Origin: a virus
Length of the DNA stretch: 64,000 bases
Virus record (IMG/VR): IMGVR_UViG_3300025435_000010
Coordinates: 1-64,000 of that record
Reading direction: 5' to 3' (one strand)
Below the pieces are notes generated by a model. It did not search any database. It was not told where the DNA came from and saw only the letters and a program-made list of their open reading frames with translations. Of the stretch, positions 16,637 through 64,000 are shown one piece after another (position 1 is the stretch's first letter; the number at the start of each line of letters is the position of its first letter). A program made the translations under genes and the position numbers.

Positions 16637-16644
16637 TTTAACAT

Positions 16645-17298
16645 ATGAAACATACAAACAAATACATCGCACTAATTACAGCAATACTACTCACAGTTAC
16701 AGCTTATGCTGGTAATGAGAATAAAGCCGTACTCGTGAGTACAAATGAGCCAATTGAATTCAACATCGAACCACACTGGACAGGAATGTATCAGCGTACA
16801 AAGTCTGACGGTCAATGGGGACCATATCAGTGGAATAACACCGAACAACTCTCTATGGGTGCTAACTTTAAGAACGGTTGGGATATAGAAGCTGAAACTG
16901 GTGTTTCGCGTAATACCGGGCTTGATCAACAAACCGGTGGATATACAGAGCTCAAACTTCGCTATACATGGGATCTTGGTAAAGATTGGGCGTTTAGTCT
17001 ACGTGGTGGTCTTGGTGATAGTTATAGCTACACTGATCCCTCGGCACCTAATATTGGTTATTGGCTTGCACAAGTTAAACTCGAGCGTAAGCTTAGTGAA
17101 AGATGGAGTACCTTTGTACGATATGAGCCTGGTAGTCTTCTCAATAGTCAATATGGTGATACATTTGTCAATACCTTTAAGCTTGGTCTAACCTATAAGG
17201 TTTCAAAGAGCGTAGAGCTTGGTACACGGTATATTACCGCCTTTGGACAAAACTATCAGGGTAACGGTGTGGAGACGACTCTTGGCTATTCTTTTTAG
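16645..17298 (+). CDS. Outer-membrane beta-barrel protein
   Basis: Sec signal peptide (AYA), amphipathic strands, C-terminal GYSF. Confidence 0.75.
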   Translation: MKHTNKYIALITAILLTVTAYAGNENKAVLVSTNEPIEFNIEPHWTGMYQRTKSDGQWGPYQWNNTEQLSMGANFKNGWDIEAETGVSRNTGLDQQTGGYTELKLRYTWDLGKDWAFSLRGGLGDSYSYTDPSAPNIGYWLAQVKLERKLSERWSTFVRYEPGSLLNSQYGDTFVNTFKLGLTYKVSKSVELGTRYITAFGQNYQGNGVETTLGYSF

Positions 17299-17338
17299 GA
17301 ATTCATTAAAACTCATATAGAGATAATAAATACTCTAT

Positions 17339-17785
17339 ATGAGTTCAAGAGATTATCAGCGTATTGATGAAGTCTATCACAATATGTATAGGAATAGGTT
17401 TCATAGAGAAGAGCCTTTTACAATAAATGAAGATGATGCGGCTGCTATGGCCGAAGATGAAGAATATAAGTCAAAAGCTAAATCACATATGCCTGAAGCT
17501 GCTAAGGTGATTATGCACAAGCTTAAGCTTGAATACGGTGACAAGTATAATCCAGAGAAGGCTAAAGCTGCTGTAAAGCATGCCCTTGCTTCAACAACAG
17601 AAGAGGATTGTGAGGAGTGGATGTTAAAACAAGACTACTCACATACACCTGATCAAAAGCAGAACGCTGTAAAGTATTTAAAGAGTGACGAAGAGAATGC
17701 TGAAGAAAAGCATTGTAAATGGGCTGCCCAGGGATGTGATTGCGGAGAGTGTGAGGAGTGTCAAGATAACGCAATAAAGGGCTAA
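17339..17785 (+). CDS. Late acidic protein with Cys-rich C-terminus; putative internal head protein
   Basis: TAAATA 6 nt upstream; RDYQRIDEVY N-terminus; CDCGECEEC. Confidence 0.7.
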   Translation: MSSRDYQRIDEVYHNMYRNRFHREEPFTINEDDAAAMAEDEEYKSKAKSHMPEAAKVIMHKLKLEYGDKYNPEKAKAAVKHALASTTEEDCEEWMLKQDYSHTPDQKQNAVKYLKSDEENAEEKHCKWAAQGCDCGECEECQDNAIKG

Positions 17786-17790
17786 GATAG

Positions 17791-18051
17791 ATGAACCAAG
17801 ATACTAATTATATCTTTAAAGCTTACGGTAAGGTTTTAGTAAAAGAAGATATAGAGCAAGAGCTTGGAGTTGATCCAAAGGATGTAGCTGAGTACGACCA
17901 GTTAAAGAAAGATATTTGCTATGATAACTACCCGTTCTGGGACGCATATCATGCAGTAAAAGAAGGAGCTTGGTCAGAGGAAGACTTTCATCAGTGGGCT
18001 TCTTCGGTATGGGCAGCTGGAGCCGACGAAAGCCAAAACTATCATTCCTAA
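17791..18051 (+). CDS. Putative internal head protein
   Basis: MNQDTNYIFKAY N-terminus shared with 18057. Confidence 0.7.
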   Translation: MNQDTNYIFKAYGKVLVKEDIEQELGVDPKDVAEYDQLKKDICYDNYPFWDAYHAVKEGAWSEEDFHQWASSVWAAGADESQNYHS

Positions 18052-18056
18052 ATTTT

Positions 18057-18494
18057 ATGAATAAAGATTCGAATCTCATTTTTGAAGCTTATAAAAAGAA
18101 ACTCGTTAATGAGTCTCAAGATCGAGATTACGTACCTTCTTTAGAGGAGATTAAAGCTACTCTGGAAGATGAGTATAAGAAAAGAATAGCCTCTTATGGC
18201 AGTAGAGGTAGTGAGTTAGGTTACGCGGTAAGAAATGCACAAGCAAAACTTAATAACATCGATCAAGAAGCAGCAGAGCTTAAGAAGATTATTGATAATG
18301 AAAAAGAGCAGATAGATAAATGGAATGCTGAAGTAGCAGGTACAGGTAGAACAACTTATACACTTTGGGATGCCCTCTATAGTTTTGTATCTGATACATC
18401 GAAAGATGTAGACGGTTATAGATTCCGTACAACATTTGAAAAGACACCAACTATTCAAATGGCTGAGCTTTATAAAAAGTACCTAAGCAGATAA
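18057..18494 (+). CDS. Putative internal head protein
   Basis: Start corrected to MNKDSNLIFEAY. Confidence 0.7.
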   Translation: MNKDSNLIFEAYKKKLVNESQDRDYVPSLEEIKATLEDEYKKRIASYGSRGSELGYAVRNAQAKLNNIDQEAAELKKIIDNEKEQIDKWNAEVAGTGRTTYTLWDALYSFVSDTSKDVDGYRFRTTFEKTPTIQMAELYKKYLSR

Positions 18495-18496
18495 TA

Positions 18497-18628
18497 CTAC
18501 TTTCTTTTCTTACCGGCGTCTGAGCGTTGAGCACGTGACTTGATACCAGCAGCTCGATGATATGAAGCCATAAACTTTTGTGCTTTAGGTGATCCGTTTT
18601 TAATAATATTGTTCTTTGTTGTTGCCAT
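18497..18628 (-). CDS. 43-aa basic peptide with RSDAGKKR motif (putative DNA-binding)
   Basis: Hand translation MATTKNNIIKNGSPKAQKFMASYHRAAGIKSRAQRSDAGKKRK*. Confidence 0.6.
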   Translation of the reverse strand: MATTKNNIIKNGSPKAQKFMASYHRAAGIKSRAQRSDAGKKRK

Positions 18629-18659
18629 AATACCAAACATAATATAAACTAATTATTAT

Positions 18660-18947
18660 ATGATTTGCAAGAATGTAATAAGAGATATTTCAGGTGCAGT
18701 AATGGCTCTATCGTTCATGATGTGCTATGTTCCGCAGATTATTAAGATTATAAAAACAAAATCTAGTTCCGATATTTCCCCTGCTATGATTTTTCTCGGT
18801 CTTTCAGGTTATATTTTTGGTATGATTTACATGTTCCTTAATGTATTCGGAACCTGGTGGTTACTTAATTACCTGACCGGAATCATAAGTTCCTTAGTTC
18901 TTTTATACTATTGGTACGTTCATAGGAACGATCCTGAGGAACCTTAG
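18660..18947 (+). CDS. PQ-loop / SemiSWEET-family 3-TM transporter
   Basis: YVPQIIKIIKTKSSSDIS motif and three TM helices. Confidence 0.85.
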   Translation: MICKNVIRDISGAVMALSFMMCYVPQIIKIIKTKSSSDISPAMIFLGLSGYIFGMIYMFLNVFGTWWLLNYLTGIISSLVLLYYWYVHRNDPEEP

Positions 18948-21137: not shown

Positions 21138-21599
21138 ATGAACAAAGATATATCTTGGTCGGATATTTTTTATGGTGTTACAAGCCTTGAAGAGTTACTT
21201 CGTGGTGATGATTTTGTACCCGATGTTGTTGTAACTATTGGACGTGGTGGTATGATTCCCGGTACGCTTTTAGCCTATCGTCTTGACGTAAAGATTATAC
21301 ATAATTTTTCTGTACAAACATATAACGAGAAAAATATAAAATCAGGTTTCATTATTGCTATTCAAGAACCTGGTCATAGTTTAACTGTTAAGCACCGGGA
21401 TCATAAGGTACTTGTTGTTGATGATATCTCTGACGGCGGAAGTACACTCGAGTATATTAAGCACGAGCTTGTTGAAAACTATGGTCTTAATAACCTAAGG
21501 TTTGCAACTCTTTACACAAAACCTCATACTACCTTTGTACCTGACTATTATGTTACTGAATATCCTAACGATTCTTGGATAATCTTTCCCTGGGAATAA
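21138..21599 (+). CDS. Type I purine phosphoribosyltransferase (Gpt/Hpt-like)
   Basis: IGRGG, PRPP-binding VLVVDDISDGGSTL, WIIFPWE. Confidence 0.9.
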   Translation: MNKDISWSDIFYGVTSLEELLRGDDFVPDVVVTIGRGGMIPGTLLAYRLDVKIIHNFSVQTYNEKNIKSGFIIAIQEPGHSLTVKHRDHKVLVVDDISDGGSTLEYIKHELVENYGLNNLRFATLYTKPHTTFVPDYYVTEYPNDSWIIFPWE

Positions 21600-29043: not shown

Positions 29044-29079
29044 ACTTGATATATTATTATTTACACGTATAATTCATAT

Positions 29080-29898
29080 ATGCTAATTAAAGTATCACAC
29101 GAATCTCCGATTTCTATACTTCAAACATCAACTCTTTATAACGATTTCGATTACGCATTAGTCCATTTATTCGAATCGCATCCAAAGTATTATCATTACT
29201 TTAAGTCAGCTCGAGATGTCTATAATCGCGAAGTACTCCTCGATAATTCTATTTTTGAACTTGGTCATGCTTTTGATAGCGATAAGTTCTTAAAGGCAGC
29301 TATTGATCTTAAGCCTAATATGTTTATCGTTCCAGACGTTTTAGAGGATAGTGATCAAACAAGACGTAGTTTTGTTAACTGGATTGCTGAAGGTAAAATC
29401 AATGAAGTAAAGCAACACTGCATAACAAAAGCAATTGGAGCTGTACAGGGTAAGACTTGGCAGGAGCTTATTGATTGTTATAAGTTTATGTCAGATCATG
29501 CTGATATGATTGCTATTAGCTTTGATTTCTCGTACTACGAGACAACAGGTGAAGGGTACGCAAAGCTTGATAAATGGTGCTCAGGTCGTCAACGGTTTAT
29601 TAGTCAGCTTATTGATAAGGGTATCTGGAACTGGAATAAACCGCATCATCTTTTAGGATGTTCCCTAGCTAAGGAATTCCGGTATTATGTTAGTCATAAT
29701 ATCTTTAATATTGTAAGTTGTGATACGAGTAACCCTATTGTTGCAGCTCTTCATAATATGCGGTATGATGCTGATTATGGTCTACCTATCAAGCCCTCAA
29801 CTAAGCTTGCTGATCTTATTGATCACCAGGTGACAAAAGATGAGATGGAAATTATCGATTATAATACTAAAATGTTTAAGAAAATTTTATGCCGATAG
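29080..29898 (+). CDS. dpdA: TGT/DpdA-like 7-deazaguanine transglycosylase (TIM barrel)
   Basis: LLDNS.FE, PDV, AVQG, HHLLG, SCDTS motifs; operon with queF. Confidence 0.7.
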   Translation: MLIKVSHESPISILQTSTLYNDFDYALVHLFESHPKYYHYFKSARDVYNREVLLDNSIFELGHAFDSDKFLKAAIDLKPNMFIVPDVLEDSDQTRRSFVNWIAEGKINEVKQHCITKAIGAVQGKTWQELIDCYKFMSDHADMIAISFDFSYYETTGEGYAKLDKWCSGRQRFISQLIDKGIWNWNKPHHLLGCSLAKEFRYYVSHNIFNIVSCDTSNPIVAALHNMRYDADYGLPIKPSTKLADLIDHQVTKDEMEIIDYNTKMFKKILCR

Positions 29899-30446
29899 AT
29901 CAAAATTGGGTCACATTTTTTAGTCGTTCTGGTTCTGAGATAAGTAATATTATCTATCAGACTAATAGAGTACCTGCTGCTGTGATAACTAATAGACAGG
30001 ATGATAAGGGATTGAATCCTTATCTTAAGGAACTAAAAGATGCAGGACTTAAGTGGATAATTTTACCTAAGAATCCTGAGCTTAAGGATTATAGAAAAGC
30101 TCTTAAACCGTATAAAGATCCTCTTATTACCTTGCATGGTTATTTGAGAATTATACCAAAGGAGATTTGTAAAAAATATAAAAATATTTACAACCTACAT
30201 CCTGGTCTTATTACAGAATATCCAGAACTTAAAGGTAAAGATCCACAAGTACGCGCTGTACAGCTAGGGCATAAAACCGCTGGTGCTGTAATACATAAAG
30301 TGATTCCTGAAGTTGATGAAGGTGAAATCATCGCTTCACACGCTATTAATATACCTGGCTTAAATGAGGAGGAGGTAATTGAACATTTGCATTCCCTTGC
30401 TAGCGTTATGTGGTACAACTTTTTTGAAACTTATGAGCATAGATGA
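29889..30446 (+). CDS. PurN-like formyltransferase (DpdN-like)
   Basis: FSRSGS, LHGYLRII, NLHPG, HKV..EVDEG catalytic motifs. Confidence 0.8.
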   Translation: MPIDQNWVTFFSRSGSEISNIIYQTNRVPAAVITNRQDDKGLNPYLKELKDAGLKWIILPKNPELKDYRKALKPYKDPLITLHGYLRIIPKEICKKYKNIYNLHPGLITEYPELKGKDPQVRAVQLGHKTAGAVIHKVIPEVDEGEIIASHAINIPGLNEEEVIEHLHSLASVMWYNFFETYEHR

Positions 30447-30780
30447 AATAGTAAACGCAATTGAAACCCAGTATCCATCGACTTGCGCTGAATTTAAAAA
30501 GATTCAGCACGATCACTATCTTACATTTTGTAAGAAACAGTTCGATTATGGACCAGGTAATATCTCCCTTGGTTCGTCGTTGAATACAGCGGAAGAGAGA
30601 AAGGCATCGATTTCAGCTATTGTTGTTAGACTTAATGATAAGCTTCAACGATTGATTAATCTTGTCTTGAGAAAGAATAGTCTTGAGTCAGCTAACGAAT
30701 CTGTCTTTGATGCGTTTCTTGATATTTCAGTTTACAGTATTATTGCTGAGATTGTTAATCGTGGCAAGTGGGCGAAGTAA
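30433..30780 (+). CDS. DUF1599 / nucleotide-modification-associated domain 1 protein
   Basis: KKQFDYG..N...VRLNDK.QR...ESV.D..LD...Y.II. Confidence 0.8.
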   Translation: MSIDEIVNAIETQYPSTCAEFKKIQHDHYLTFCKKQFDYGPGNISLGSSLNTAEERKASISAIVVRLNDKLQRLINLVLRKNSLESANESVFDAFLDISVYSIIAEIVNRGKWAK

Positions 30781-30795
30781 TAGTATAATAGTAAT

Positions 30796-31344
30796 ATGAT
30801 TATTAGTTTCTCAGGTGTTCAAAGCTCAGGTAAGACTACGCTACTAAAGGGTTGTAAGGAGATCTATAGCGACCGGTTTGAGTTTGTAGATGAAGTAACG
30901 AGATTAGTAAAGCGGGAGTTTAATGTACCTATTAATGAACAAGGTACAGGTTTGACTCAATGTTTAATTACTAATAAACATATTGAGAATGTATTACGGT
31001 ATAGAGAGAAGAGTGCGATACTCGATCGTTGTATTCTAGATGGGTTATGTTATACGGGTTATTTACATCTAGAGGGTAGTGTACCTGGATGGGTATTTGA
31101 TTATACGAAGAATGTTTTTAAGAAACTTATTACACAATATGATGTAATCTTTTATACAGATCCATACGACGTAGCTCTTGTTGATGATGGTGAGAGAAGT
31201 ACAGATATTGTGTTTAGAGATAAGATGATCGAAACGTTTGAACAGGCTATTATCTCGTATAGTGATTTATTAGAAAATAAACTCGTTCGGCTAAAAGGAA
31301 CAGTTGAAGAACGAATGGAAGCTATTAAAATAAAACTACAATAA
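30796..31344 (+). CDS. P-loop nucleotide kinase (AAA_28 / dNMP-kinase-like)
   Basis: GVQSSGKTT Walker A, LDRCILD, DDGER. Confidence 0.8.
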   Translation: MIISFSGVQSSGKTTLLKGCKEIYSDRFEFVDEVTRLVKREFNVPINEQGTGLTQCLITNKHIENVLRYREKSAILDRCILDGLCYTGYLHLEGSVPGWVFDYTKNVFKKLITQYDVIFYTDPYDVALVDDGERSTDIVFRDKMIETFEQAIISYSDLLENKLVRLKGTVEERMEAIKIKLQ

Positions 31345-31347
31345 TTT

Positions 31348-32256
31348 ATGACAACAAACCTAACTGATATTGCATCCAAAACTCTTGGCTCATCAGCATC
31401 ATATGCTGTATACACTGAACAGTATGATCCTTCACTACTCAATCCTATGCCTCGAATTCTTGCTCGTGAAGGCTGGGGTATTAAGGGTGATGAGTTTGTA
31501 GGGTTCGATACATGGCATTGTCATGAAGCTACATTTCTTTTGAATAACGGTGTACCTATTGCAGGTACTGTTAAGTTTGTTTATTCATCTGATTCTGAGT
31601 TTATGGTTGAGTCTAAGTCAGCTAAGCTTTATATGAATTCATTTGATATGTGTAAGATGGGTGATACCGTTGATGAGGCTATTGCTAACTATGAGAAACA
31701 GATTGCTCTAGATCTCACTAATGCAATTGGTAAAGATGTTAAAGTTATGTTCTTTAAATCTGGTTCATCGGGCCTCTTTCCTCTTAATAATTATATTGAT
31801 CTATACGATATTGTAAATAAAACGTCAAATGTAGAGATAACTGATTATGATGCTAAGGAGAATCATCTCAAATTTATTGAACGGGTTAATAGCGGTACAC
31901 TTACCGATAACAAGTATTTTACTAACGCATTAAGATCACGTTGTCGTCATACTAAGCAGAAGGATACCGGTGCTGCTTATATTAATATTATTACTAAAGG
32001 TACCACTGTTGACCCTGTATCGCTTTTTAAGCAGATTGTATCATTGCGTGAAGTTAACGAATTCCATGAGTTCTGCGCTGAAAAGCTTCTTACTAGTATT
32101 ATGGAGCATAAAGAAGTTGTTGATTGCGTTGTAACACTTCTTTATTCACGCCGTGGTTCGTTAGATATTAACCCGTCTCGTGCTACCAATCGTCATCTTC
32201 TTCCAGTATTGCTTAGTGATACAAACGCTTATACCGAAAAAGCAATGGGTCAATAG
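31348..32256 (+). CDS. queF: NADPH-dependent preQ0 reductase, two-domain type
   Basis: ESKSAKLYMNSF, catalytic RSRC...D, EFHE, RRGSLDINP. Confidence 0.9.
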   Translation: MTTNLTDIASKTLGSSASYAVYTEQYDPSLLNPMPRILAREGWGIKGDEFVGFDTWHCHEATFLLNNGVPIAGTVKFVYSSDSEFMVESKSAKLYMNSFDMCKMGDTVDEAIANYEKQIALDLTNAIGKDVKVMFFKSGSSGLFPLNNYIDLYDIVNKTSNVEITDYDAKENHLKFIERVNSGTLTDNKYFTNALRSRCRHTKQKDTGAAYINIITKGTTVDPVSLFKQIVSLREVNEFHEFCAEKLLTSIMEHKEVVDCVVTLLYSRRGSLDINPSRATNRHLLPVLLSDTNAYTEKAMGQ

Positions 32257-32280: not shown

Positions 32281-32312
32281 AAAAAAAAGCCTCGACTATG
32301 TCGAGGCTTTTT
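32281..32312. terminator. Bidirectional rho-independent terminator
   Basis: A-tract-GCCTCGAC-TAT-GTCGAGGC-T-tract between convergent genes. Confidence 0.85.
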
Positions 32313-36699: not shown

Positions 36700-37158
36700 T
36701 TATTTATCTATACCTAATTCTTTTTCTGTTAAAATTAAGAAGTTATAACCATACTTCTGACACCACTTTCTAGCTGCTTCCCACTTTGCTTGATTTTGAG
36801 CAAAGCGAGCGGTTTCATAAACCATTGTCGACATACGCTTTCTACCTTTTACCGGTAATACGGTTTGAGCACTCGGCTTAATCTCAATGATATATTTTTT
36901 TATTATATTGCCCTCTTTTATTGCAACAACACCATCGGTGTGGTAGCGGTGTACCTTGCGATCTAGTGGACTGACATAAGGTATAATTACAGCTTCTGAC
37001 GCCCATTCAACAACGTTATCGTTATCATCACACCATCTAAAAAATTTCAACTCCCAGCCTGAACGATATACAGGATCTTCTTTACCGATATATTTTGCTT
37101 GGTTCTTTGGCTTAAAGACACCTTGTTTAAATTTACCCTTACCGTTGAGAGGGATCAT
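36700..37158 (-). CDS. gp4: Head completion nuclease, gp4 family
   Basis: YRSGWE..F..WCD, WASE, IPY.SP, EIKP, NQAKWEAA. Confidence 0.92.
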   Translation of the reverse strand: MIPLNGKGKFKQGVFKPKNQAKYIGKEDPVYRSGWELKFFRWCDDNDNVVEWASEAVIIPYVSPLDRKVHRYHTDGVVAIKEGNIIKKYIIEIKPSAQTVLPVKGRKRMSTMVYETARFAQNQAKWEAARKWCQKYGYNFLILTEKELGIDK

Positions 37159-43682: not shown

Positions 43683-44054
43683 TTAATTAGATAGGTTTTC
43701 TGAAAATGCAATGTATTGATTTATTTCTCTCTTTGAAAGCTCAAGATTATTAGCAAGCATTTCAATGTCATTATTTTCTTCTTTTTTTTCTTCTTTAACT
43801 TTCTTTATATAAGATATTCGCTTTGAGGTGACTCTTGGCATTACCGCGACAAATAAGCTATACAGATCTTTTTTGTCGTTAAAAACGCCAATGTATTTGT
43901 TTAGTATATTGCTAAATGTAGCAATAGATGGCGAGTACATGCTACACCATCTATTGAGCATATAGGGCGAAAAGTTGCTCTCTTCGTCTACAGAGTTAAA
44001 ACAAGTTTTCTTTTTAGAAAAGAGTGTACTCGATATAAAATCAAATATCGTCAT
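43683..44054 (-). CDS. Clamp-loader small subunit-like (gp62)
   Basis: FDFI...FSPYMLNRW.S...YIKK...LS.RE pattern. Confidence 0.65.
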   Translation of the reverse strand: MTIFDFISSTLFSKKKTCFNSVDEESNFSPYMLNRWCSMYSPSIATFSNILNKYIGVFNDKKDLYSLFVAVMPRVTSKRISYIKKVKEEKKEENNDIEMLANNLELSKREINQYIAFSENLSN

Positions 44055-44638
44055 TAACTAATGACTTTTGTAGTTGCAAGAAAGATATCTTCTACCATTG
44101 CATAGAAGATTTCGATAATATCTCTCATAAACTGCTCAGCTTCTGTATCACCTAACTTAGTCGAAAAAGCAAATGCTGGGGCTTTCTTACCAGCTTCTAT
44201 ATTAATACCGGTATGACCGAGTGCTACATTATTCTTCGAATAGGTAATACTAACACTACACTTACCCTTCATCTGTGTAACGCCGCCTTGGTTATGCTCC
44301 TTATGAACCATGAGGTCGTCTCCGTCAACTTCAATAGGTGCTCTAAGATACTTGCTACTAAGGATATTAGCAATCTGCGTATTAAGAAGACGTTGAAACG
44401 CTACAGCGCCAAAAGGGTCTAAGTTAGGGATCTCCCAACAGAAGTTAATTGCATCGTCACTGTAGATATAATCAGCATTAAGGATATCTTCATTGTCAAT
44501 CATACCTTCAGCCTCCACTTTCATAGGAGCTCTAAAAGCTACAATGTTACCAATGGGCAATGTATTCTTACGAAAATATTTGTAAGCAAAGCGATTGTGA
44601 ATGAGATCTCCGTCGTATAATGGTACGTTAATAATCAT
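44054..44638 (-). CDS. DUF366-family protein (lipoate/biotin-ligase-like fold)
   Basis: YDG..I...FAY, IVAFR, D.ED, QRL, GDDL, K.SVSI, H.GIN. Confidence 0.75.
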   Translation of the reverse strand: MIINVPLYDGDLIHNRFAYKYFRKNTLPIGNIVAFRAPMKVEAEGMIDNEDILNADYIYSDDAINFCWEIPNLDPFGAVAFQRLLNTQIANILSSKYLRAPIEVDGDDLMVHKEHNQGGVTQMKGKCSVSITYSKNNVALGHTGINIEAGKKAPAFAFSTKLGDTEAEQFMRDIIEIFYAMVEDIFLATTKVIS

Positions 44639-44670
44639 ATGCTATAATAATAACTGGTTAACTTGATTAA

Positions 44671-46272
44671 TCAAGAGGTATATGGATGCCACTCACACTT
44701 TTTAAAGAAATCACGCCAGTAGTTATACACACGGTAATCGTTAGGTGTTCCCCAGCAGATATAATTCTTTACTTCAAATACTTTTACATTGAGACCTGCT
44801 TCTATATTCTGGTTAATAACATCATCAACGTAAAATTCTTCGTTCGTACGAATATCTTTACTATAGCAACCTTGCAAGCCACTTATAAAATATTCTGCTT
44901 TTCTATAAAACATTGTACCGATAATAGCGTGCGTTTTAAGAGGATCGTCAAAGACAAACTTTTTACAATATACATGTTTTATATTATTATCATCATCAAC
45001 GTCTAACCAAGAATACATATTAGGATTAACTTTACTCGTTTGATTATTTCTAAACGACCAAACAATAACATCAACACTCTGATCGTCTAATAATTTCTTA
45101 TATTCTTCGGTATCATAAAATACACCGTTATCGCAAGCAGAAATTAATATAGGCTTATCTAAGTCTATATTTCCGTCACGTACTCCGATTTCGCAGGTAC
45201 AGGCTTGACCAGAGGTAACACCTGTTAAACAAACGATACTTGTACCACTAAAATACTTCGGTAGTATTGAGTCCAGCTTAAATTGCTGTACATGATCATC
45301 CTGAGCGACGAATATATTGTGCCTAGATTGCGGTAAGCACTTCACTGCCTGTACTATCATAGGCAAACCGTCTACATCTAAAAGAGGTTTTGGAGTTGTA
45401 TAACCTTCATCAGCAAAACGGCTACCTCGACCTGCCATAGGCAGTATAAGCGTTACGTCGTTATCATGCTCAAGTATAGGTTGTTTAACGGATATATTTT
45501 TAAAATAATTTGACCAGCCTTTATAAATCTCTAAATCGTACGGTGTACCCCATTGTAGCATTTTCTCAATTTCAAATATACCAACCTTTAAACCATCTTC
45601 TACAAGTAGGTTATATACAAGGCTGACATAATACTCACCTTTCAAGTTAATATCACGATCTATAAGCTCTTGAAAATATTTCTTTAGAATAGCGCCGTTC
45701 TTAAAATAATATGTACCGTTCGATGCATACTCGTTCATCTTGTTATCGGTAAATGATTCTTTTTCCTTTATCTGAAGAAGTGTTTTATTCTCTTCTTTGC
45801 AGAAAGCGTAATTGTCACCGCCAAGCATATGGGGATGAAATCCGGTGTAACACGGTATCATGCCGTCGTATATACCATTAGCTGTCTGTTTTAAGAATTG
45901 GTTAAAATTCCAAACTGTACTGTAATCACAATAGCTTACAATAATCTCTGCGTCGTCGTTTATATGGTCTTTTATTTGATATATAGCATCAACAGGACCT
46001 TTTCTATTTTCATTCGAAACACTTATAATTTTACCGGTAGGAGCAATATTTGTAAGAATATTACGCATATCCGTTTCAGCTAAATGTCTTTCATTACAGA
46101 TAAACGTAATATCCTTAATGCCGGAAAACATATTTACCACATGTTCGATAATTGGTTTTCCATCAACGTTTATTAGAGGCTTCGGATCCGTGTAACCGGC
46201 TTCAATAAATCTTCGACCAATACCTGACATCGGTATTATTAATTGTATGTTTCTACCCTGCATATTATACAT
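44671..46272 (-). CDS. Tandem two-domain sugar/polyol-phosphate nucleotidyltransferase
   Basis: I(I/L)PMxG.G.RF...GY..PKPL..VDG twice; WGTP twice. Confidence 0.85.
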   Translation of the reverse strand: MYNMQGRNIQLIIPMSGIGRRFIEAGYTDPKPLINVDGKPIIEHVVNMFSGIKDITFICNERHLAETDMRNILTNIAPTGKIISVSNENRKGPVDAIYQIKDHINDDAEIIVSYCDYSTVWNFNQFLKQTANGIYDGMIPCYTGFHPHMLGGDNYAFCKEENKTLLQIKEKESFTDNKMNEYASNGTYYFKNGAILKKYFQELIDRDINLKGEYYVSLVYNLLVEDGLKVGIFEIEKMLQWGTPYDLEIYKGWSNYFKNISVKQPILEHDNDVTLILPMAGRGSRFADEGYTTPKPLLDVDGLPMIVQAVKCLPQSRHNIFVAQDDHVQQFKLDSILPKYFSGTSIVCLTGVTSGQACTCEIGVRDGNIDLDKPILISACDNGVFYDTEEYKKLLDDQSVDVIVWSFRNNQTSKVNPNMYSWLDVDDDNNIKHVYCKKFVFDDPLKTHAIIGTMFYRKAEYFISGLQGCYSKDIRTNEEFYVDDVINQNIEAGLNVKVFEVKNYICWGTPNDYRVYNYWRDFFKKCEWHPYTS

Positions 46273-46276
46273 CTAC

Positions 46277-46738
46277 TTAAATTTTACACTTATATTTGCA
46301 ATATGTGACATAGTCAGTGCAAATACCATGAACAATATCGCCAGGATATGTATCAATATCTTCTTTTGATAAAAGCGGTATTATACAGCTTTCAGTCAAC
46401 GGTAATGTTAAATCATGTACCCAAAGATGTCGAGTACTAGTAAGTACGTATGTATCTATTGAATGGCAGAAATATTTTGCTGCTGTAAATTCTTTTAATT
46501 TGTAAGCCGCAGCAACATCCTTACAGTGGAGCCAGAGATACTTTAACCGTGGTTCTAACCACTCACGATTAATTTTATAGTCGGGTGTATCGTGACCTAA
46601 CCAGAACTGATTATTGATATAGCGTATATCGATTTCAACTTCATATCCTAGCTGTATTGCGCAATCAATATACGACGGTCTGTTTTCCTTATCAGGTATA
46701 GGTCCGATAATATTACCTCTATGTGATATTAATTTCAT
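46277..46738 (-). CDS. GDPD/PLC-like phosphodiesterase
   Basis: ISHRGN, EN, VEID, GHD.P, ICTD. Confidence 0.75.
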   Translation of the reverse strand: MKLISHRGNIIGPIPDKENRPSYIDCAIQLGYEVEIDIRYINNQFWLGHDTPDYKINREWLEPRLKYLWLHCKDVAAAYKLKEFTAAKYFCHSIDTYVLTSTRHLWVHDLTLPLTESCIIPLLSKEDIDTYPGDIVHGICTDYVTYCKYKCKI

Positions 46739-47028
46739 AGTTCTTCAATTCGTAATGTTTTATCATCAATAAAACGGTCATAGTAAGGTTTATCAACACG
46801 AAGTTCGTGATACTTTACGCCCCATTCATCTAATTGATTTTTTGTTAAATCATACCAGTTGATCTGTTTTCTACTACCTCGTGACGTCCAATAAACGATC
46901 GTATTACCTGCTGCATATAGTTTGTTTATTTTTTCTATATTTTCCTTTATAGGAATTGCGTCATGGTAATTTCGAGAAGCTGGCGAAGTGCATATCGTTT
47001 CATCAATATCTACGTAATATATTTTCAT
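46735..47028 (-). CDS. Minimal HAD phosphatase (capsule-biosynthesis type)
   Basis: DIDETI, TSRG, KP, IDDK. Confidence 0.8.
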   Translation of the reverse strand: MKIYYVDIDETICTSPASRNYHDAIPIKENIEKINKLYAAGNTIVYWTSRGSRKQINWYDLTKNQLDEWGVKYHELRVDKPYYDRFIDDKTLRIEEL

Positions 47029-47042
47029 ACTTAACGTATAAA

Positions 47043-47771: not shown

Positions 47772-47826
47772 AAAACCGTTAAAATACTATTATAAACTAC
47801 ACCATAACAGTAGTCAAGTCTACTTC

Positions 47827-51648: not shown

Positions 51649-51653
51649 TTTCG

Positions 51654-57828: not shown

Positions 57829-58578
57829 TTATTCGCCTAAATTTTTAGCACGAATAATTCCAGTACGGAATTTCTCTTCATTAACTTCAGCCTGTTGCGT
57901 ATCTTTCTGATCAGTTATCAACTTAGCCATTAAATCTAAATTTTTTTCATCAAGAATACTTGTCTCATCAACAACTGCATTACCTTCGCTATTAATATAA
58001 AGTTCGATCATCGCAATACGTTCTTCTCTTGATCCAAATACTTCAATGACAGGCGGACGATCTTCATCAGGAAAGAACGGTGATGTACCGGTGCGTGTAT
58101 AAGTATGCTCGATAGCTTTAAATAGATTATCAATTTCCTTAATATACTCTTCGTTAATATTTCGCGATTCGCGAGCTTCTTTAGGAATAGGTGAAAACTT
58201 AGTAATAGGTGTAAAGAAAATAATATCAAGTGAATGCATTGTTTCTTTTATAAGAGGTATACACTTCTTAATAAATTCATCACTTATTTGTGATGAATTT
58301 TTGCTATTAGCCCAGAGCGAATATACAAGATTATCTAATGGGCATCGATCGAAGAGTACATAATCATCTTTTGATGTTTTCTGAATATCATTAAGAAGAC
58401 AATTGAGAATGCGCCATTGACCGTCTTCTGTTACTTGATCGTTAAGTGGTATATTTTCTTCTTTAATTATTTTACGATACGATTCATCCGACCTCTTGTA
58501 CATTGGCCATTTTTTAATAATATCATCAATTAGTGTACTTTTACCTTGACAGGCTGAACCGGAAATCGCAATACGCAT
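57829..58578 (-). CDS. P-loop nucleotide kinase (AAA_28-like), paralog of 30796
   Basis: GSACQGKST, FDRCPLD, G..EER. Confidence 0.8.
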   Translation of the reverse strand: MRIAISGSACQGKSTLIDDIIKKWPMYKRSDESYRKIIKEENIPLNDQVTEDGQWRILNCLLNDIQKTSKDDYVLFDRCPLDNLVYSLWANSKNSSQISDEFIKKCIPLIKETMHSLDIIFFTPITKFSPIPKEARESRNINEEYIKEIDNLFKAIEHTYTRTGTSPFFPDEDRPPVIEVFGSREERIAMIELYINSEGNAVVDETSILDEKNLDLMAKLITDQKDTQQAEVNEEKFRTGIIRAKNLGE

Positions 58579-58613: not shown

Positions 58614-59366
58614 TTACACACGCAGTGCTTTATCCCAAATTACCAATTGCAAACGAGGACTAAAATTCACGCAGAGCGCTTTTGCATACTCTGCTACTGC
58701 TACACTACGCTCAACGTGCTCGTTTCGCGACCCGCAACACGGCATAAACCAAATATGACTCTTCGGTATATTAATACCGTGCTTATCATCAACATACTTC
58801 TCCCAAATCTCATTAATATCCTCAGCAACATTAATAACAAACTTAAAACCCGAATGGTGAGCTTTATGCCATTTAAGAACTTCAGGCTTATAAGTTTTTT
58901 CCTCTGGATCGCCATTAGAGCGAAGCTTAGGGGATGTAGTAAACGTTGCCTTAAATTCTGTTACCCAACGTTCGTCTGGTAAAATTGTCGCGTTTGTCTC
59001 AAAGTCGATACGCGGTATAAAACCATAACGCTCTCTAAATGCTTCCATAAAGCGTAAAAGTGGTTCTTGTCTAAGCATCGGTTCACCGCCGGTGATTTTT
59101 AAAATAGCTCTGTCCTTAAGATGTTTAATAAAGTTATTTTTTTCATAAAATTCAAACATATCCTCGAAACTCCATTTATTTCTTTTCGACCATGAGATAT
59201 ATGAGTCACAGCCATGAGGCGAGTCTGGGCTTGCAAACGCTTTACAGGTTAAGTTACAACCGAAAAGTCTCAAGAATACTGATGGTTGACCTATAAACAT
59301 ACCTTCACCTTCGATAGTAAGGAATCCGGGCCCATCGTCACTGATTAGCAAATAATTTTCATCCAT
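58614..59366 (-). CDS. queE: 7-carboxy-7-deazaguanine synthase (radical SAM)
   Basis: TIEGEG...FLRL.GCNLTC...CD, TGGEP, ETN, SPKL, RLQ. Confidence 0.92.
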   Translation of the reverse strand: MDENYLLISDDGPGFLTIEGEGMFIGQPSVFLRLFGCNLTCKAFASPDSPHGCDSYISWSKRNKWSFEDMFEFYEKNNFIKHLKDRAILKITGGEPMLRQEPLLRFMEAFRERYGFIPRIDFETNATILPDERWVTEFKATFTTSPKLRSNGDPEEKTYKPEVLKWHKAHHSGFKFVINVAEDINEIWEKYVDDKHGINIPKSHIWFMPCCGSRNEHVERSVAVAEYAKALCVNFSPRLQLVIWDKALRV

Positions 59367-60959: not shown

Positions 60960-61350
60960 GAGCTTTTAGTTCTGCAAGTGCTCTAATAACTGCATCATTA
61001 GCTTGTTGTATATCGCTTGCAGATTGATCTTTTAATGTTGGTTTAAAATTAATATTTGTTTGACTATCAGACGTAAGTCCGTATTCTTGAGCTATTTTTG
61101 ACAATGTTATTTGTAATTGATCTACAAGGGGATCTGGCTGTCTCTCAATAAGAGCATCCATGCTTATATTAGCCGGTGATGCTGTTACTGCTACATGCCC
61201 GATTGGCTTAACTTGTGTATTATATATAGTTTCAAGTTTTTGATCATTATTAAAAAAAGAATCAACAAAATCAGGAGCTAACTTACCTTGAATTTTTAAA
61301 TGGTCTGATATTTCACCGCCATAAAGCTGGTGAGTAAACTCTGCGTTCAC
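60946..61350 (-). CDS. Hypothetical protein
   Basis: GTG start overlapping the queD stop. Confidence 0.6.
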   Translation of the reverse strand: MNAEFTHQLYGGEISDHLKIQGKLAPDFVDSFFNNDQKLETIYNTQVKPIGHVAVTASPANISMDALIERQPDPLVDQLQITLSKIAQEYGLTSDSQTNINFKPTLKDQSASDIQQANDAVIRALAELKALNEI

Positions 61351-62024
61351 CGACTTCCCCAGCTAATGTTATCAAATAACCCTGAATAACCATTTGTTAC
61401 ATTATTACGTAGTGGGACAGGCTGATTATTAGGTGTAGGGTTAGTTGTTGTTACAGTAGTTTGTGTGATTTGTTCAAGTTCCTCAACAGGGATATGTGTC
61501 GAAGCAGCTTGTTCGTTGACAGTTGTCGGTGTTTCGGTTATCTGTTTGTCAGAACTATTAACAATCGACCAAGCTGTTGTTCTGACTGATTCAGAATAAA
61601 TTGCTGAATTCGCTTCATGCTCAAATACTTCTACTTTTTCTACCCAACAACGATCACCATACTTTTCATTAAGATATGTTTGAGCTGCTTTGTAGCACCA
61701 TTCAGCTGTTTTTTCAATTCCAACAGCATCCATGACACGTAGATCGCATCCACCAGCATCATGTAATTGATGAAATAATGGTAATAATGGATCATCTTTT
61801 GAGATGCAAAGTGTATGATCGAATTGTTTATTAAGAATAGCTTTAAGGTCCTTTAATCCACCGAAATCAACTGACCAGTTATTACTGTCGAGTTCGCGAC
61901 ATTCAAAATGGAATTTTGCCTTAAGTTGATAACCGTGAACTAGATGACAATGACTATGGGTAGCTCCAAATTGTCTGAAGGCACAAGATCCAAGATCGAT
62001 AAGTTTAGTACTCTGATAACTCAT
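61347..62024 (-). CDS. queD: 6-carboxy-tetrahydropterin synthase with low-complexity C-terminal extension
   Basis: HCHLVHGY, VDFGGLK, FDH, E.FEH..NSA. Confidence 0.9.
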   Translation of the reverse strand: MSYQSTKLIDLGSCAFRQFGATHSHCHLVHGYQLKAKFHFECRELDSNNWSVDFGGLKDLKAILNKQFDHTLCISKDDPLLPLFHQLHDAGGCDLRVMDAVGIEKTAEWCYKAAQTYLNEKYGDRCWVEKVEVFEHEANSAIYSESVRTTAWSIVNSSDKQITETPTTVNEQAASTHIPVEELEQITQTTVTTTNPTPNNQPVPLRNNVTNGYSGLFDNISWGSR

Positions 62025-63665: not shown

Positions 63666-64000
63666 ATGTCTGAATATACAAAAGAGTATAAACTTAAATT
63701 TGCTAACGGAAATCATCCTCATTCATCTGAAGAGAGACAAGCTATTATCGATAACGCTTCAAAAGCATATGAAGCCTATCTAGACGCTCTTGGCTTTGAT
63801 TGGCGTAACGATCCAAACAGTACCGGTACACCATTGAGAGTAGCTAAAGCATTCGTCAATGATCTTGCAAGTGGTTGTTATGATAACCCTCCGAAGATTA
63901 CATCATTTCCTAGTAATGGATATGATGGAATGGTGTTTCAAGGTGGTATCCCTGTAAAGTCACTCTGTAGCCATCATCACCTTGCTTTTACCGGTGTCGC
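63666..64000 (+). CDS. folE: GTP cyclohydrolase I (5' part, runs off the window)
   Basis: Hand translation ...DPNSTGTPLRVAKA...YDGMV...SLCSHHHLAFTG. Confidence 0.92.
   Translation, partial: MSEYTKEYKLKFANGNHPHSSEERQAIIDNASKAYEAYLDALGFDWRNDPNSTGTPLRVAKAFVNDLASGCYDNPPKITSFPSNGYDGMVFQGGIPVKSLCSHHHLAFTGV

What the first reader, a model, noticed from the sequence alone, without database searches (positions are those of the whole stretch)
29080..32256. 7-deazaguanine operon predicting formyl-preQ1 DNA, with extra genes suggesting synthesis at the nucleotide level
Seen: a contiguous cluster of TGT/DpdA-like, PurN-like formyltransferase, DUF1599, P-loop kinase and QueF, with queE, queD and folE at 58.6-64 kb. 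queC is not in the window. Known: FolE-QueD-QueE-QueC make preQ0 and QueF reduces it to preQ1. DpdA proteins place these bases in phage DNA, and a PurN paralog (DpdN) is linked to formylated dPreQ1. Inference: the embedded kinase and DUF1599 point to a modified dNMP->dNTP route with pool control, allowing extensive G replacement by the polymerase. These steps are not biochemically defined to my knowledge.
Basis: partly seen in the sequence, partly recalled or inferred. Interest (0 to 1): 0.75.

Follow-up and report, generated by a model that had tools for sequence, protein, structure and literature searches.

The report
Phage formyl-preQ1 DNA cassette with kinase
An uncultured T4-like phage carries the known gene set for replacing the guanine in its DNA with formyl-preQ1, and the small kinase built into that gene set hints, without proving, that the new base is made as a free nucleotide before the DNA is copied.

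Summary
Window 29080-32256 is one operon of five genes: DpdA3-type transglycosylase, DpdN formyltransferase, a DUF1599-like protein, an AAA_28 kinase and QueF. It has its own sigma-70-type promoter and a terminator. QueE, QueD and FolE lie at 58.6-64 kb. QueC lies outside the window, at 81.1 kb of the 131-kb record.

This is the same kind of system as in Flavobacterium phage immuto (100% fdPreQ1; Cui et al. 2023), which has the same gene order, kinase included. As a gene set it is a new member of a known kind.

The kinase is not discussed in print. Kin1 homologues occur only in DpdA3-carrying phages among 50,697 records. Kinase-like genes of several unrelated families sit beside DpdA3 in 10 of 11 isolate lineages and beside DpdA1 in 0 of 3. 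A kinase-DpdA3 fusion exists. NTP-pyrophosphatase-type genes often accompany them.

Against this, in a broader sample only 17 of 80 loci had a kinase within 4 kb. Two large predicted-preQ0 clades carry an AT-hook protein next to DpdA3 instead.

I put about 0.5 on pre-replicative synthesis at the nucleoside or nucleotide level and about 0.35 on the published post-replicative exchange. The suggested "pool control" role of DUF1599 has no support. This scan reached the same reading earlier on other DNA.

The parts
29046..29073 (+). Sigma-70-type promoter of the cassette (TTGATA, 16 nt, TATAAT). The -10 box ends 6 nt before the DpdA3 start codon.
   Evidence: It matches 11 of 12 consensus positions. 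The -35 TTGA and the -10 box are kept in 20 of 20 aligned upstream regions of related loci, together with an invariant TATTTAC between them.
29080..29898 (+). DpdA3-type TGT-fold transglycosylase, 272 aa. It is a minimal, acidic TIM barrel with no Cys cluster.
   Evidence: tblastn gives 44-45% identity to immuto DpdA and CP220 gp056. The AF2 model has pLDDT 97. All 50 listed Foldseek hits are tRNA-guanine transglycosylases. VIA Z scores are 17.8 for ArcTGT and 17.2 for DNA preQ0 insertase DpdA 7ui4. D55 and D215 are invariant in 48 sequences. Median pI is 5.6.
29889..30446 (+). DpdN, a PurN-like formyltransferase of 185 aa. It overlaps the DpdA3 gene by 10 nt.
   Evidence: Pfam Formyl_trans_N, E 1.2e-16. 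43% identical to immuto DpdN. N102, H104 and D143 are invariant. The best PDB sequence matches are GAR transformylases, E 1.3e-17.
30433..30780 (+). DUF1599/Nmad1-like protein of 115 aa, function unknown. It is the most conserved gene of the cassette.
   Evidence: Pfam DUF1599 E 0.017, below cut-off. phrog_1485 E 1e-11. 28 of the 30 nearest ESM-Atlas clusters are DUF1599-type. Mean column identity is 78% over 13 loci. Present in 69 of 80 related loci.
30796..31344 (+). Kin1, an AAA_28 P-loop nucleoside/nucleotide-kinase-like protein of 182 aa.
   Evidence: Pfam AAA_28 E 2.4e-10. AF2 model pLDDT 91. Top fold hits are thymidylate kinases, deoxynucleoside kinases and NadR. The profile against PDB gives NadR ribosylnicotinamide kinase 8.7e-4, dNK 2e-3, TMPK 3e-3. 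It is present in 71 of 80 related loci. Among 50,697 phage records, homologues occur only in DpdA3-carrying phages.
31348..32256 (+). Bimodular QueF (preQ0 to preQ1 reductase), 302 aa.
   Evidence: Pfam QueF_N 8.3e-24 and QueF 1.2e-9. TIGR03138 E 2.8e-51, but below its curated cut-off.
32284..32312 (.). Bidirectional intrinsic terminator that closes the cassette.
   Evidence: 13-bp stem with 6 G-C pairs and T runs on both strands.
21138..21599 (+). Xanthine/guanine-type phosphoribosyltransferase, 153 aa. It is probably part of the extended system (guanine salvage).
   Evidence: Pfam Pribosyltran 5.9e-21. NCBIfam XPRT E 3e-23, below cut-off. It keeps the same position in 10 of 80 related loci, where the flank reaches that far. 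A PRTase sits next to FolE in immuto and in several loci of the second sample.
57829..58578 (-). Kin2, a second AAA_28 kinase-like protein of 249 aa, immediately downstream of QueE.
   Evidence: Pfam AAA_28 1.7e-11. 27% identical to Kin1. The QueE-Kin2 pair is kept in 5 of 5 large related virus records.
58614..59366 (-). QueE (7-carboxy-7-deazaguanine synthase).
   Evidence: phrog_2076 E 4.1e-42; Pfam Fer4_12.
61347..62024 (-). QueD (6-carboxytetrahydropterin synthase) with a C-terminal extension.
   Evidence: Pfam PTPS 9.3e-14; phrog_2389 3.9e-34.
63666..64000 (+). FolE (GTP cyclohydrolase I). It is cut by the window end and runs to 64316 in the record.
   Evidence: Pfam GTP_cyclohydroI 8e-9.

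Best explanation
**What it is.** The cassette is an early-expressed operon of the DpdA3/DpdN type. Together with FolE, QueD, QueE and QueC elsewhere in the genome, it makes the phage replace the guanine of its DNA with 7-(formylamino)methyl-7-deazaguanine (fdPreQ1). This part is close to certain by homology to phage immuto.

**How it most likely works (inferred, not shown).**
1. [quoted passage not shown]
2. DpdA3, a stripped-down TGT barrel, swaps preQ1 for guanine on a free deoxyguanosine nucleotide or nucleoside, not on finished DNA.
3. DpdN, the closest relative of the GAR-ribonucleotide formyltransferase PurN, formylates the aminomethyl group.
4. Kin1, perhaps together with Kin2, phosphorylates the product. 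Host nucleoside-diphosphate kinase then completes the triphosphate.
5. The phage B-family polymerase writes it into DNA.
6. The released guanine is returned to GMP by the XGPRT-like enzyme and feeds FolE again.

The role of the DUF1599-like protein is unknown.
For: **Identity of the system**
- The gene order DpdA3-DpdN-kinase-QueF is the same as in immuto. Immuto DNA is 100% fdPreQ1 (PMC10516641, section 18).
- The full preQ1 pathway is present in the record.

**Pre-replicative reading**
1. Kin1 homologues were found in only 21 of 50,697 phage records. All 21 are Campylobacter or Flavobacterium phages that also carry a DpdA3-type gene.
2. A P-loop kinase-like gene lies within 3 genes of DpdA3 in 10 of 11 isolate lineages examined. 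The kinases belong to different families:
   - AAA_28 in the window clade, immuto, CP220, CC_R7 and Bakedbeans;
   - AAA_18 in phiST and MA9V-3;
   - T4-gp1-type DNMK in Ahp1 and D479 (weakly also in Bakedbeans);
   - a weak TMPK/dNK-like P-loop in BSTP12 and Youna2.
   These rest. In contrast, 0 of 3 DpdA1 phages (9g, CAjan, phiSM) have one, either among 15 neighbours scanned with Pfam or anywhere in the genome for AAA_28.
3. A natural kinase-DpdA3 fusion, P0258, has both motif sets intact. DpdA3-DpdN and DpdA3-QueF fusions also exist.
4. An NTP/dNTP-hydrolase-type gene is in the same cluster in 7 of 11 lineages: MazG/PRA-PH, HD or DCD/dUTPase-like.
5. DpdA3 is small and acidic and lacks a Cys cluster.
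6. The DpdN profile matches PurN over its whole length, including the N-terminal SGxGS-type loop. It matches tRNA formyltransferase only over the C-terminal half.
7. Kin2 is tied to QueE in 5 of 5 relatives.
8. The promoter is sigma-70-type and conserved, which suggests early expression.
9. From the literature: all three tested DpdA3 phages show complete replacement, against 30% or less for other DpdA classes. DpdA3 could not be made to work in E. coli. The ADG nucleoside was seen in the cytoplasm of infected Campylobacter (PMC10516641, sections 16, 17, 21).
Against: - No TGT-superfamily enzyme is known to act on a free nucleotide. The nearest folds are tRNA and DNA transglycosylases.
- In a second, more diverse sample of 80 DpdA3-family loci, only 17 had a recognisable kinase within about 4 kb. 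That is 13 of 14 loci with QueF but only 4 of 66 without it.
- Two large clades of predicted preQ0 type instead keep a protein with a C-terminal AT-hook-like tail next to DpdA3. This would fit action on DNA.
- RHph_I1_18 showed no kinase near DpdA3.
- The kinases and the PRTase could serve guanine salvage instead.
- Early expression fits DNA-modifying enzymes as well.
- The isolate lineages were found by similarity searches, not sampled at random.
- The authors who measured these DNAs propose post-replicative insertion.
Confidence: 0.5

Rival explanations
1. This is the published model. DpdA3 is a DNA transglycosylase that exchanges guanine for preQ1 (or formyl-preQ1) in already replicated phage DNA, and DpdN formylates the free base or the DNA-borne base. 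The kinases and the phosphoribosyltransferase only recycle the large amount of released guanine (guanine to GMP to GDP) back into GTP for FolE, or serve general nucleotide supply.
For: - The nearest solved folds are tRNA and DNA transglycosylases, including DpdA 7ui4 at Z 17.2.
- The only sequence-level PDB hit is DpdA, with an aligned HLLG...D(S/T)xxP motif at E 0.47.
- Cui et al. propose post-replicative insertion for all DpdA classes.
- A PRTase next to FolE recurs, which fits a salvage loop.
- 62 of the 80 loci in the second sample fall into two clades that have almost no kinase within 4 kb and instead carry an AT-hook-type neighbour.
Against: - Salvage does not explain why unrelated kinase families, including a T4-type dNMP kinase, replace each other right beside DpdA3.
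- It does not explain why a kinase is fused to DpdA3, or why dNTP-hydrolase-type genes travel with them.
- DpdA1 phages, which also release guanine, lack such kinases in 3 of 3 cases.
- Complete, sequence-independent replacement of every G in duplex DNA has no precedent among DpdA1, DpdA2 or DpdA4, which replace 30% or less.
- Heterologous DpdA3 expression gave no DNA modification.
Confidence: 0.35
2. Kin1 is not a small-molecule kinase. It is an ATPase partner that powers or loads DpdA3 on DNA, playing the part that the ATPase DpdB plays for bacterial DpdA.
For: There is tight linkage and one natural fusion of the AAA_28 protein with DpdA3. That bacterial DpdA needs an ATPase partner is recalled knowledge and comes from no call here.
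Against: - Kin1 has the fold and motifs of nucleoside/nucleotide kinases: a P-loop, a DR motif aligned with that of a deoxynucleoside kinase, and a lid with conserved arginines.
- In other lineages its place is taken by unrelated kinase families, including the dNMP-kinase family. This argues for a shared catalytic activity and not a specific protein contact.
- DpdB is ParB-like. A ParB_N protein does sit next to DpdA1 in phiSM, but none is seen here.
Confidence: 0.07
3. The TGT-like enzyme modifies tRNA (for example the phage tRNA-Asn GUU) with preQ1 or a derivative, and the DNA stays canonical.
For: tRNA-Asn(GTT) is encoded at 1934-2010. The fold is TGT-like.
Against: - The closest characterised relatives sit in phages whose DNA is fully modified.
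- The protein lacks the Cys cluster of tRNA TGTs.
- tRNA queuosine insertion has no known need for a formyltransferase, two kinases or a phosphoribosyltransferase.
Confidence: 0.03

Closest known systems
[quoted passage not shown]
   Same: The genes are the same and come in the same order: DpdA3, DpdN, AAA_28 kinase (gp203, annotated 'thymidylate kinase'), QueF. FolE, QueD, QueE, QueC and a phosphoribosyltransferase lie elsewhere. Identity is 33-60%. Table DS1 of that paper already lists three genomes with DpdA3 + DpdN + QueF.
   Different: - The window adds a DUF1599-like gene inside the cassette.
- It has no MazG/PRA-PH gene next to DpdA3 (immuto gp208).
- The cassette sits as a self-contained early-type unit between the baseplate hub and the capsid gene of a T4-like phage.
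- The polymerase is B-family, whereas immuto has an A-family polymerase.
- No DNA chemistry is known for this clade.
Other DpdA3 systems with complete replacement: Campylobacter phage CP220 (dADG) and Cellulophaga phage phiST (dDG)
   Same: The DpdA3 homologue (45% identity for CP220) has a P-loop kinase-like gene directly beside it and a dNTP-hydrolase-type gene in the cluster. In CP220 these are an AAA_28 kinase and an HD-AAA_33 protein. In phiST they are an AAA_18 protein and a MazG-like protein.
   Different: These systems have no QueF and no DpdN. The pathway stops at CDG-derived bases. phiST uses DpdL and a kinase of a different family.
T4 hydroxymethylcytosine pathway (dCTPase gp56, dCMP hydroxymethylase gp42, dNMP kinase gp1). 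This is a 'works like' comparison, recalled from textbook knowledge.
   Same: It has the proposed logic: clear the canonical dNTP, modify at the monophosphate level, re-phosphorylate with a phage kinase, and let the polymerase write the base. In Aeromonas phage Ahp1 and Vibrio phage D479, DpdA3 is followed directly by a gp1-family kinase and a DCD/dUTPase-fold protein.
   Different: The modifying enzyme here is a base-exchanging TGT barrel, not a thymidylate-synthase-like enzyme. No dGTPase was identified in this window. Nothing has been shown biochemically.
Bacterial DpdA/DpdB and phage DpdA1/DpdA2 DNA transglycosylases (for example PDB 7ui4; phages 9g, CAjan, phiSM)
   Same: They share the TGT fold (Z 17.2 to 7ui4), the aligned HLLG...D-S/T-x-x-P motif and the same preQ0 supply genes.
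   Different: They are larger (about 240-436 aa). Replacement is partial, 30% or less. No kinase was found in the DpdA1 neighbourhood or genome in the 3 phages tested.

Membership tests
DpdA3 subfamily of TGT/DpdA transglycosylases | Sequence homology to the DpdA3 proteins named in Cui et al. 2023 (immuto YP_010114477, CP220 YP_009169190) | tested here: met
   44-45% identity over 94-97% of the protein, E 1e-49 to 2e-57. The three-way alignment has 64% mean column identity.
DpdA3 subfamily of TGT/DpdA transglycosylases | TGT-type TIM-barrel fold | tested here: met
   The model has pLDDT 97. All 50 listed Foldseek hits are TGTs, best E 5.1e-8. VIA ranks ArcTGT, DpdA and TGT at 1-3 (Z 17.8, 17.2, 16.2), with generic TIM barrels from Z 15.8 downward.
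DpdA3 subfamily of TGT/DpdA transglycosylases | The two catalytic aspartates of TGT enzymes | tested here: inconclusive
   D55 and D215 are invariant in 48 diverse sequences. The D215 motif aligns with DpdA 7ui4 in a weak HMM match, E 0.47. Equating D55 and D215 with the TGT catalytic pair rests on recalled motifs, not on a residue-level structural alignment.
DpdA3 subfamily of TGT/DpdA transglycosylases | Co-encoded 7-deazaguanine synthesis genes | tested here: met
DpdA3 subfamily of TGT/DpdA transglycosylases | Complete replacement of dG in virion DNA | not testable with these tools
   This needs LC-MS of virion nucleosides. It is known only for immuto, CP220 and phiST.
DpdN (preQ1/dPreQ1 formyltransferase) | PurN-type Formyl_trans_N domain with the Asn-His-Asp catalytic residues | tested here: met
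   Pfam E 1.2e-16. N102, H104 and D143 are invariant in 17 sequences. They align with PurN structures at E 1.3e-17. That these are the catalytic residues is recalled knowledge.
DpdN (preQ1/dPreQ1 formyltransferase) | Grouping with immuto DpdN and co-encoding with DpdA plus FolE through QueF | tested here: met
   43% identical to immuto YP_010114479. It lies next to DpdA3 in 79 of 80 related loci. No tree against Cui's groups 2 and 3 was built.
QueF, bimodular type | QueF_N plus QueF domains | tested here: met
   Pfam 8.3e-24 and 1.2e-9. The NCBIfam equivalog TIGR03138 scores 174.7 bits, below its cut-off of 293, so this is a divergent member.
DUF1599 / Nmad1 | Match to PF07659 above the gathering score | tested here: inconclusive
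   E 0.017 at 15.9 bits against a cut-off of 25. tblastn to crAss-phage 'DUF1599' proteins gives E 4e-5. 28 of 30 ESM-Atlas neighbours are DUF1599-type. A relative in another DpdA3 lineage scores 24.3 bits.
Thymidylate kinase (the label given to Kin1 homologues by PHROGs, JGI and RefSeq) | Match to the dTMP-kinase family models | tested here: not met
   TIGR00041 E 0.056 at 13 bits against a cut-off of 83. There is no PF02223 hit. The Pfam family is AAA_28. The fold resembles TMPK, dNK and NadR about equally.
Pre-replicative dNTP-substitution pathways (T4 hmC, S-2L dZ type) | Modified nucleotide made as a free dNMP/dNTP and incorporated by the polymerase, with the canonical dNTP excluded | not testable with these tools
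   Only context evidence exists: kinase, fusions and NTPase-type neighbours. No dGTP-specific hydrolase was identified in this record.

The most novel reading that the evidence does not exclude
DpdA3 is not a DNA-modifying enzyme. It would be the first TGT-fold enzyme that exchanges the base of a free deoxyguanosine nucleotide or nucleoside. Together with a dedicated phage kinase (and, in many lineages, a dNTP pyrophosphatase) it forms a pre-replicative pathway to 7-deaza-dGTP analogues. [quoted passage not shown]
Probability: 0.5. Interest if true: 0.85.

Novelty: new member of a known kind. Interest (0 to 1): 0.6.

Why it matters
Three consequences would follow if the kinase link means what it suggests.
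- The route by which phages fully replace G with 7-deazaguanines is a nucleotide-pool pathway like T4 hmC or S-2L aminoadenine, and not DNA editing.
- The TGT superfamily gains a new substrate class.
- The failure to reconstitute DpdA3 in E. coli has a simple explanation and a simple fix: add the kinase and the hydrolase.

It would also give an enzymatic route to 7-substituted 7-deaza-dGTPs, which are useful reagents.

As a gene set the cassette is ordinary. It shows that the immuto-type fdPreQ1 system is widespread in uncultured T4-like phages (335 IMG/VR relatives found by one scan).

Tried and rejected
- **Megablast.** The cassette found no match in the phage collection, so protein searches were needed.
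- **DUF1599-like protein.**
  - Profile comparison with the immuto MazG-like protein and with the DUF3310 tail of the RHph_I1_18 DpdA3 fusion gave nothing.
  - Its profile found no solved structure.
  - The ESM Atlas holds no model of it.
- **Complex prediction of DpdA3 with Kin1.** The job gave no answer: best score 0.28, mark 0.32. It counts neither way.
- **Walker-A text pattern.** A strict pattern undercounted kinases and was replaced by profile searches.
- **Wrong guess corrected.** I first took the roughly 616-aa neighbour in the second sample for a polymerase. Pfam shows it is a ribonucleotide reductase.
- **'Thymidylate kinase' label for Kin1.** Rejected.
- **Crippen et al. 2019 (J Virol).** This paper first proposed a modified dGTP route for Campylobacter phages. 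It could not be read: three look-ups failed. What I say of it comes from passages in PMC6884629 and PMC10516641.
- **Supplementary PDF of PMC10516641.** It could not be read and may hold text on DpdN or DpdA3.
- **Earlier-findings look-up by place.** It returned nothing.
- **Literature searches.** 'DpdA3', 7-deazaguanine with pre-replicative, with dGMP and kinase and with dGTP or complete replacement found no paper that assigns the kinase a role. 'Kinase' occurs 0 times in the main text and in the spreadsheet supplement of Cui et al..

Full report

| Gene | Coordinates | Key evidence |
|---|---|---|
| DpdA3-type protein, 272 aa | 29080-29898 | no Pfam family; phrog_19058 E 6.7e-55; 44-45% identical to the annotated DNA-guanine transglycosylase of Flavobacterium phage immuto and to CP220 gp056 |
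| DpdN | 29889-30446 | Formyl_trans_N |
| DUF1599-like, 115 aa | 30433-30780 | DUF1599 only marginally: E 0.017, 15.9 bits, cut-off 25; backed by tblastn to crAss-phage DUF1599 proteins and by 28 of the 30 nearest ESM-Atlas clusters |
| Kin1 | 30796-31344 | AAA_28 P-loop protein |
| QueF | 31348-32256 | bimodular QueF |

QueE, QueD and FolE lie where stated, and tRNA-Asn(GTT) is at 1934-2010. QueC is outside the window, at 81099-81812 of the same 131,144-bp IMG/VR virus record. CheckV estimates that record to be 60% complete. It is a T4-like phage with gp23-type capsid, gp20 portal, gp32, UvsY, clamp loader and a B-family polymerase.

**Anatomy of the cassette.**
- The genes overlap or are separated by 15 nt or less.
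- A sigma-70-type promoter (TTGATA, 16 nt, TATAAT; 11 of 12 positions) ends 6 nt before the first ATG.
- A 13-bp-stem bidirectional terminator follows QueF.
- In 20 of 20 aligned upstream regions from related loci, the -35 TTGA, the -10 box and an invariant TATTTAC between them are kept, although the proteins have diverged to 63% identity.
- The cassette is therefore a self-contained unit, probably early-expressed. It is set in the opposite orientation between the baseplate hub gene and the major capsid gene.

**Extended system.** Three more genes belong with the cassette.
- A second AAA_28 protein, Kin2 (57829-58578), lies directly downstream of QueE. The pair is kept in 5 of 5 large related records.
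- An XGPRT-like phosphoribosyltransferase lies at 21138-21599. A PRTase is also adjacent to FolE in immuto and in several other DpdA3 lineages.
- A class-II glutamine amidotransferase lies two genes after QueC. I did not follow it up.

**Conservation.** One scan of IMG/VR found 335 relatives of the DpdA3 protein; the best 80 were kept. Counts among those 80 are.

| Gene | Loci with the gene |
|---|---|
| DpdN | 79 of 80 |
| DUF1599-like | 69 of 80 |
| Kin1 | 71 of 80 |
| QueF | 69 of 80 |
| all five | 66 of 80 |

The nine loci without Kin1 all stop at a contig end shortly after the last cassette gene. Four loci (L081, L082, L085, L089) have Kin1 but no DUF1599-like gene. These 80 loci are close kin, so they count as one lineage.

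**What is known.** From Cui, Hutinet et al. (NAR 2023, PMC10516641) I read the abstract, sections 16-19 and 21, searched passages and sheet DS1 of the spreadsheet supplement.
- Immuto DNA has dG completely replaced by fdPreQ1.
- DpdA3 is the subfamily that 'allows for complete replacement'.
- DpdN is the predicted formyltransferase.
- DpdA3 could not be tested in E. coli.

DS1 already lists three genomes with DpdA3 + DpdN + QueF. The immuto locus has the same order as the window, including the AAA_28 gene, gp203, annotated 'thymidylate kinase'. As a gene set the window is therefore a new member of a known kind. The word 'kinase' occurs 0 times in that paper's main text and spreadsheet supplement. 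Its supplementary PDF could not be read.

**The kinase link in isolate genomes.** Kin1 homologues were detected by tblastn (E up to 1e-3) in only 21 of 50,697 phage records: 17 Campylobacter and 4 Flavobacterium. All 21 belong to phages in which a DpdA3-type gene is found. For vB_CcoM-IBB_35 the two genes lie on different contig records.

I then read the neighbourhood of every DpdA3-type hit I could find in isolate genomes.

| Lineage | Kinase-like gene | NTP/dNTP-hydrolase-type gene |
|---|---|---|
| window clade | AAA_28 | none identified |
| immuto | AAA_28 | PRA-PH/MazG-like |
| CP220 | AAA_28 downstream; AAA_33 half of the upstream HD-AAA_33 fusion | HD half of that fusion |
| CC_R7 (QueC-DpdA3-kinase-polymerase) | AAA_28 | none seen |
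| phiST | AAA_18 (CGPG_00066) | MazG-like |
| Chryseobacterium MA9V-3 | AAA_18 | DCD-like |
| Bacillus BSTP12 / Weizmannia Youna2 | weak TMPK/dNK-like P-loop protein with a DR motif (followed by polymerase A) | none seen |
| Aeromonas Ahp1 | T4-gp1-family dNMP kinase, E 1.7e-17 | DCD/dUTPase-fold protein |
| Vibrio D479 | T4-gp1-family dNMP kinase | DCD/dUTPase-fold protein |
| Vibrio Bakedbeans | AAA_28 plus a weak DNMK-like protein | none seen |
| Rhizobium RHph_I1_18 (DpdA3 fused to DUF3310) | none seen | DCD/dUTPase-like protein |

That is a kinase-like gene within three genes of DpdA3 in 10 of 11 lineages, and an NTP/dNTP-hydrolase-type gene in 7 of 11. As controls I used three DpdA1 phages with partial replacement (9g, CAjan, phiSM). 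They had no kinase or hydrolase family among 15 neighbours scanned and no AAA_28 anywhere in their genomes, 0 of 3. The lineages were found by similarity, not sampled at random, and three controls are few.

**Fusions.** The representative search counted 1,406 cluster representatives at E up to 1e-3 and listed the best 150. Of 10 long proteins on that list that I scanned:
- one (P0258, 473 aa) is an AAA_28 kinase fused to DpdA3, with the motifs of both halves intact;
- two are DpdA3-formyltransferase fusions.

A search for longer forms found three DpdA3-QueF fusions.

**A broader sample cuts the claim down.** I ran a second IMG/VR scan seeded with distant representatives (80 loci, about 4 kb of flank). 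I annotated it with local profiles and one Pfam run on 126 cluster representatives.
- Only 17 of 80 loci have a recognisable kinase in the flank. That is 13 of 14 loci with QueF but 4 of 66 without it.
- At 55% DpdA3 identity the loci form six groups. The two largest (37 and 25 loci; QueC present, QueF absent, so predicted preQ0) are almost kinase-free.
- Those two groups instead tend to keep a family of about 170 aa with no Pfam match and a basic KRGRP-type tail, next to DpdA3 or one gene away (39 members, 31 of them at position -1 or -2).
- They often sit among ribonucleotide reductase, thymidylate synthase, dUTPase and thioredoxin genes.
- In 4 of 5 large records of these clades a true Kin1 homologue is encoded elsewhere in the genome (26-30% identity, E 1e-12 to 1e-16). 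The fifth record is 51% complete.

The kinase thus co-occurs with DpdA3 more widely than it neighbours it. Adjacency is a property of the preQ1-type and CDG-type lineages, which include all three phages with measured complete replacement.

**Protein features.**
- *DpdA3.* The model is confident (pLDDT 97). All 50 listed Foldseek hits are tRNA-guanine transglycosylases. VIA ranks ArcTGT (Z 17.8, rmsd 2.9, 234 aligned), DpdA 7ui4 (Z 17.2) and TGT (Z 16.2) first, with generic TIM barrels from Z 15.8 downward. The family is short (about 260-290 aa) and acidic (median pI 5.6, median net charge -7, n = 48). It has no conserved Cys cluster.
- *DpdN.* The profile matches GAR transformylases best (E 1.3e-17). 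The match covers the whole domain, including the N-terminal S..G(S/T) loop that aligns with the SGxGS loop of PurN. tRNA formyltransferase matches only the C-terminal half. That this loop holds the 5'-phosphate of the PurN substrate is recalled knowledge.
- *Kin1.* The model (pLDDT 91) resembles thymidylate kinases, deoxynucleoside kinases and NadR about equally. Its DR motif aligns with that of a deoxynucleoside kinase. I cannot tell whether it acts on a nucleoside or on a monophosphate.

**Reading.**
- *Shown by homology:* this is an immuto-type fdPreQ1 system.
- *Inferred:* the modified base enters DNA through the nucleotide pool. DpdA3 would exchange preQ1 for guanine on a free deoxyguanosine nucleotide or nucleoside. 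DpdN would formylate it. Kin1 and Kin2 would phosphorylate it. The polymerase would incorporate it. The PRTase would salvage the released guanine.

I put this at about 0.5. The published post-replicative model, with the kinases serving salvage, stays at about 0.35. It is favoured by the known substrates of the superfamily and by the AT-hook clades. An ATPase-helper role for Kin1 gets about 0.07 and tRNA modification about 0.03. The 'pool control' role for the DUF1599-like protein has no support, and no dGTP hydrolase was identified in this 60%-complete record.

**Priority.** Hutinet et al. 2019 (PMC6884629, passages only) mention that some phages might make a modified dGTP, 'as proposed for Campylobacter phages' by Crippen et al. 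2019. I could not read that paper. The searches found no paper that links DpdA3 with a kinase. Earlier agents of this scan reached the same reading on other DNA. I list five of those notes. They agree with my reading but are not independent evidence.

Noticed in passing
window 44054-56812 (- strand): A run of about 13 genes sits between the structural genes and encodes sugar- and nucleotide-sugar-type enzymes: DUF366, NTP_transferase, TylF and Methyltransf_24 methyltransferases, a PRK/uridine-kinase-like protein, and GT61, GT10 and GT2 glycosyltransferases. It could decorate the virion, the host surface or the DNA.
   Followed up: no
L112-L188 (for example L134:3452-3964, L127:2526-3056): A family of about 170 aa (39 members) has no Pfam match, a conserved NYN(R/Q)F.WWR motif and a basic KRGRP-type (AT-hook-like) tail. 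It sits next to DpdA3, or one gene away, in the clades that lack QueF and a nearby kinase. It may be a DNA-binding partner or a regulator.
   Followed up: partly
window 29046-29082 and 20 related loci (alignment A6): The -10 box ends a constant 6 nt before the ATG, so the transcript may be leaderless. An invariant TATTTAC lies between the -35 and -10 boxes.
   Followed up: partly
G000 82764-83447 (L006:18764-19447): A stand-alone class-II glutamine amidotransferase domain lies two genes after QueC (GATase_6, E 1.1e-10). Phage 9g and BSTP12 carry Gat-QueC-type genes. Its role beside QueF is unclear.
   Followed up: no
window 59441-60112; also related loci such as L031:9388-10346: A GIY-YIG homing-endonuclease-like gene lies between QueE and PhoH. 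Many related loci carry an extra stretch of about 1 kb between DpdN and the DUF1599-like gene. I did not annotate it.
   Followed up: no
L099:4001-5269 (Rhizobium phage RHph_I1_18); P0271-P0273; P0127, P0186: DpdA3 occurs fused to DUF3310 (422 aa), to QueF (531-568 aa) and to the formyltransferase (447 aa).
   Followed up: partly
window 15542-18947 and 36700-37158: Transporter-like genes (DUF401/CitMHS-like, PQ-loop) lie in the early region. A TnsA-like endonuclease gene lies between the prohead protease gene and the gene next to the portal gene.
   Followed up: no
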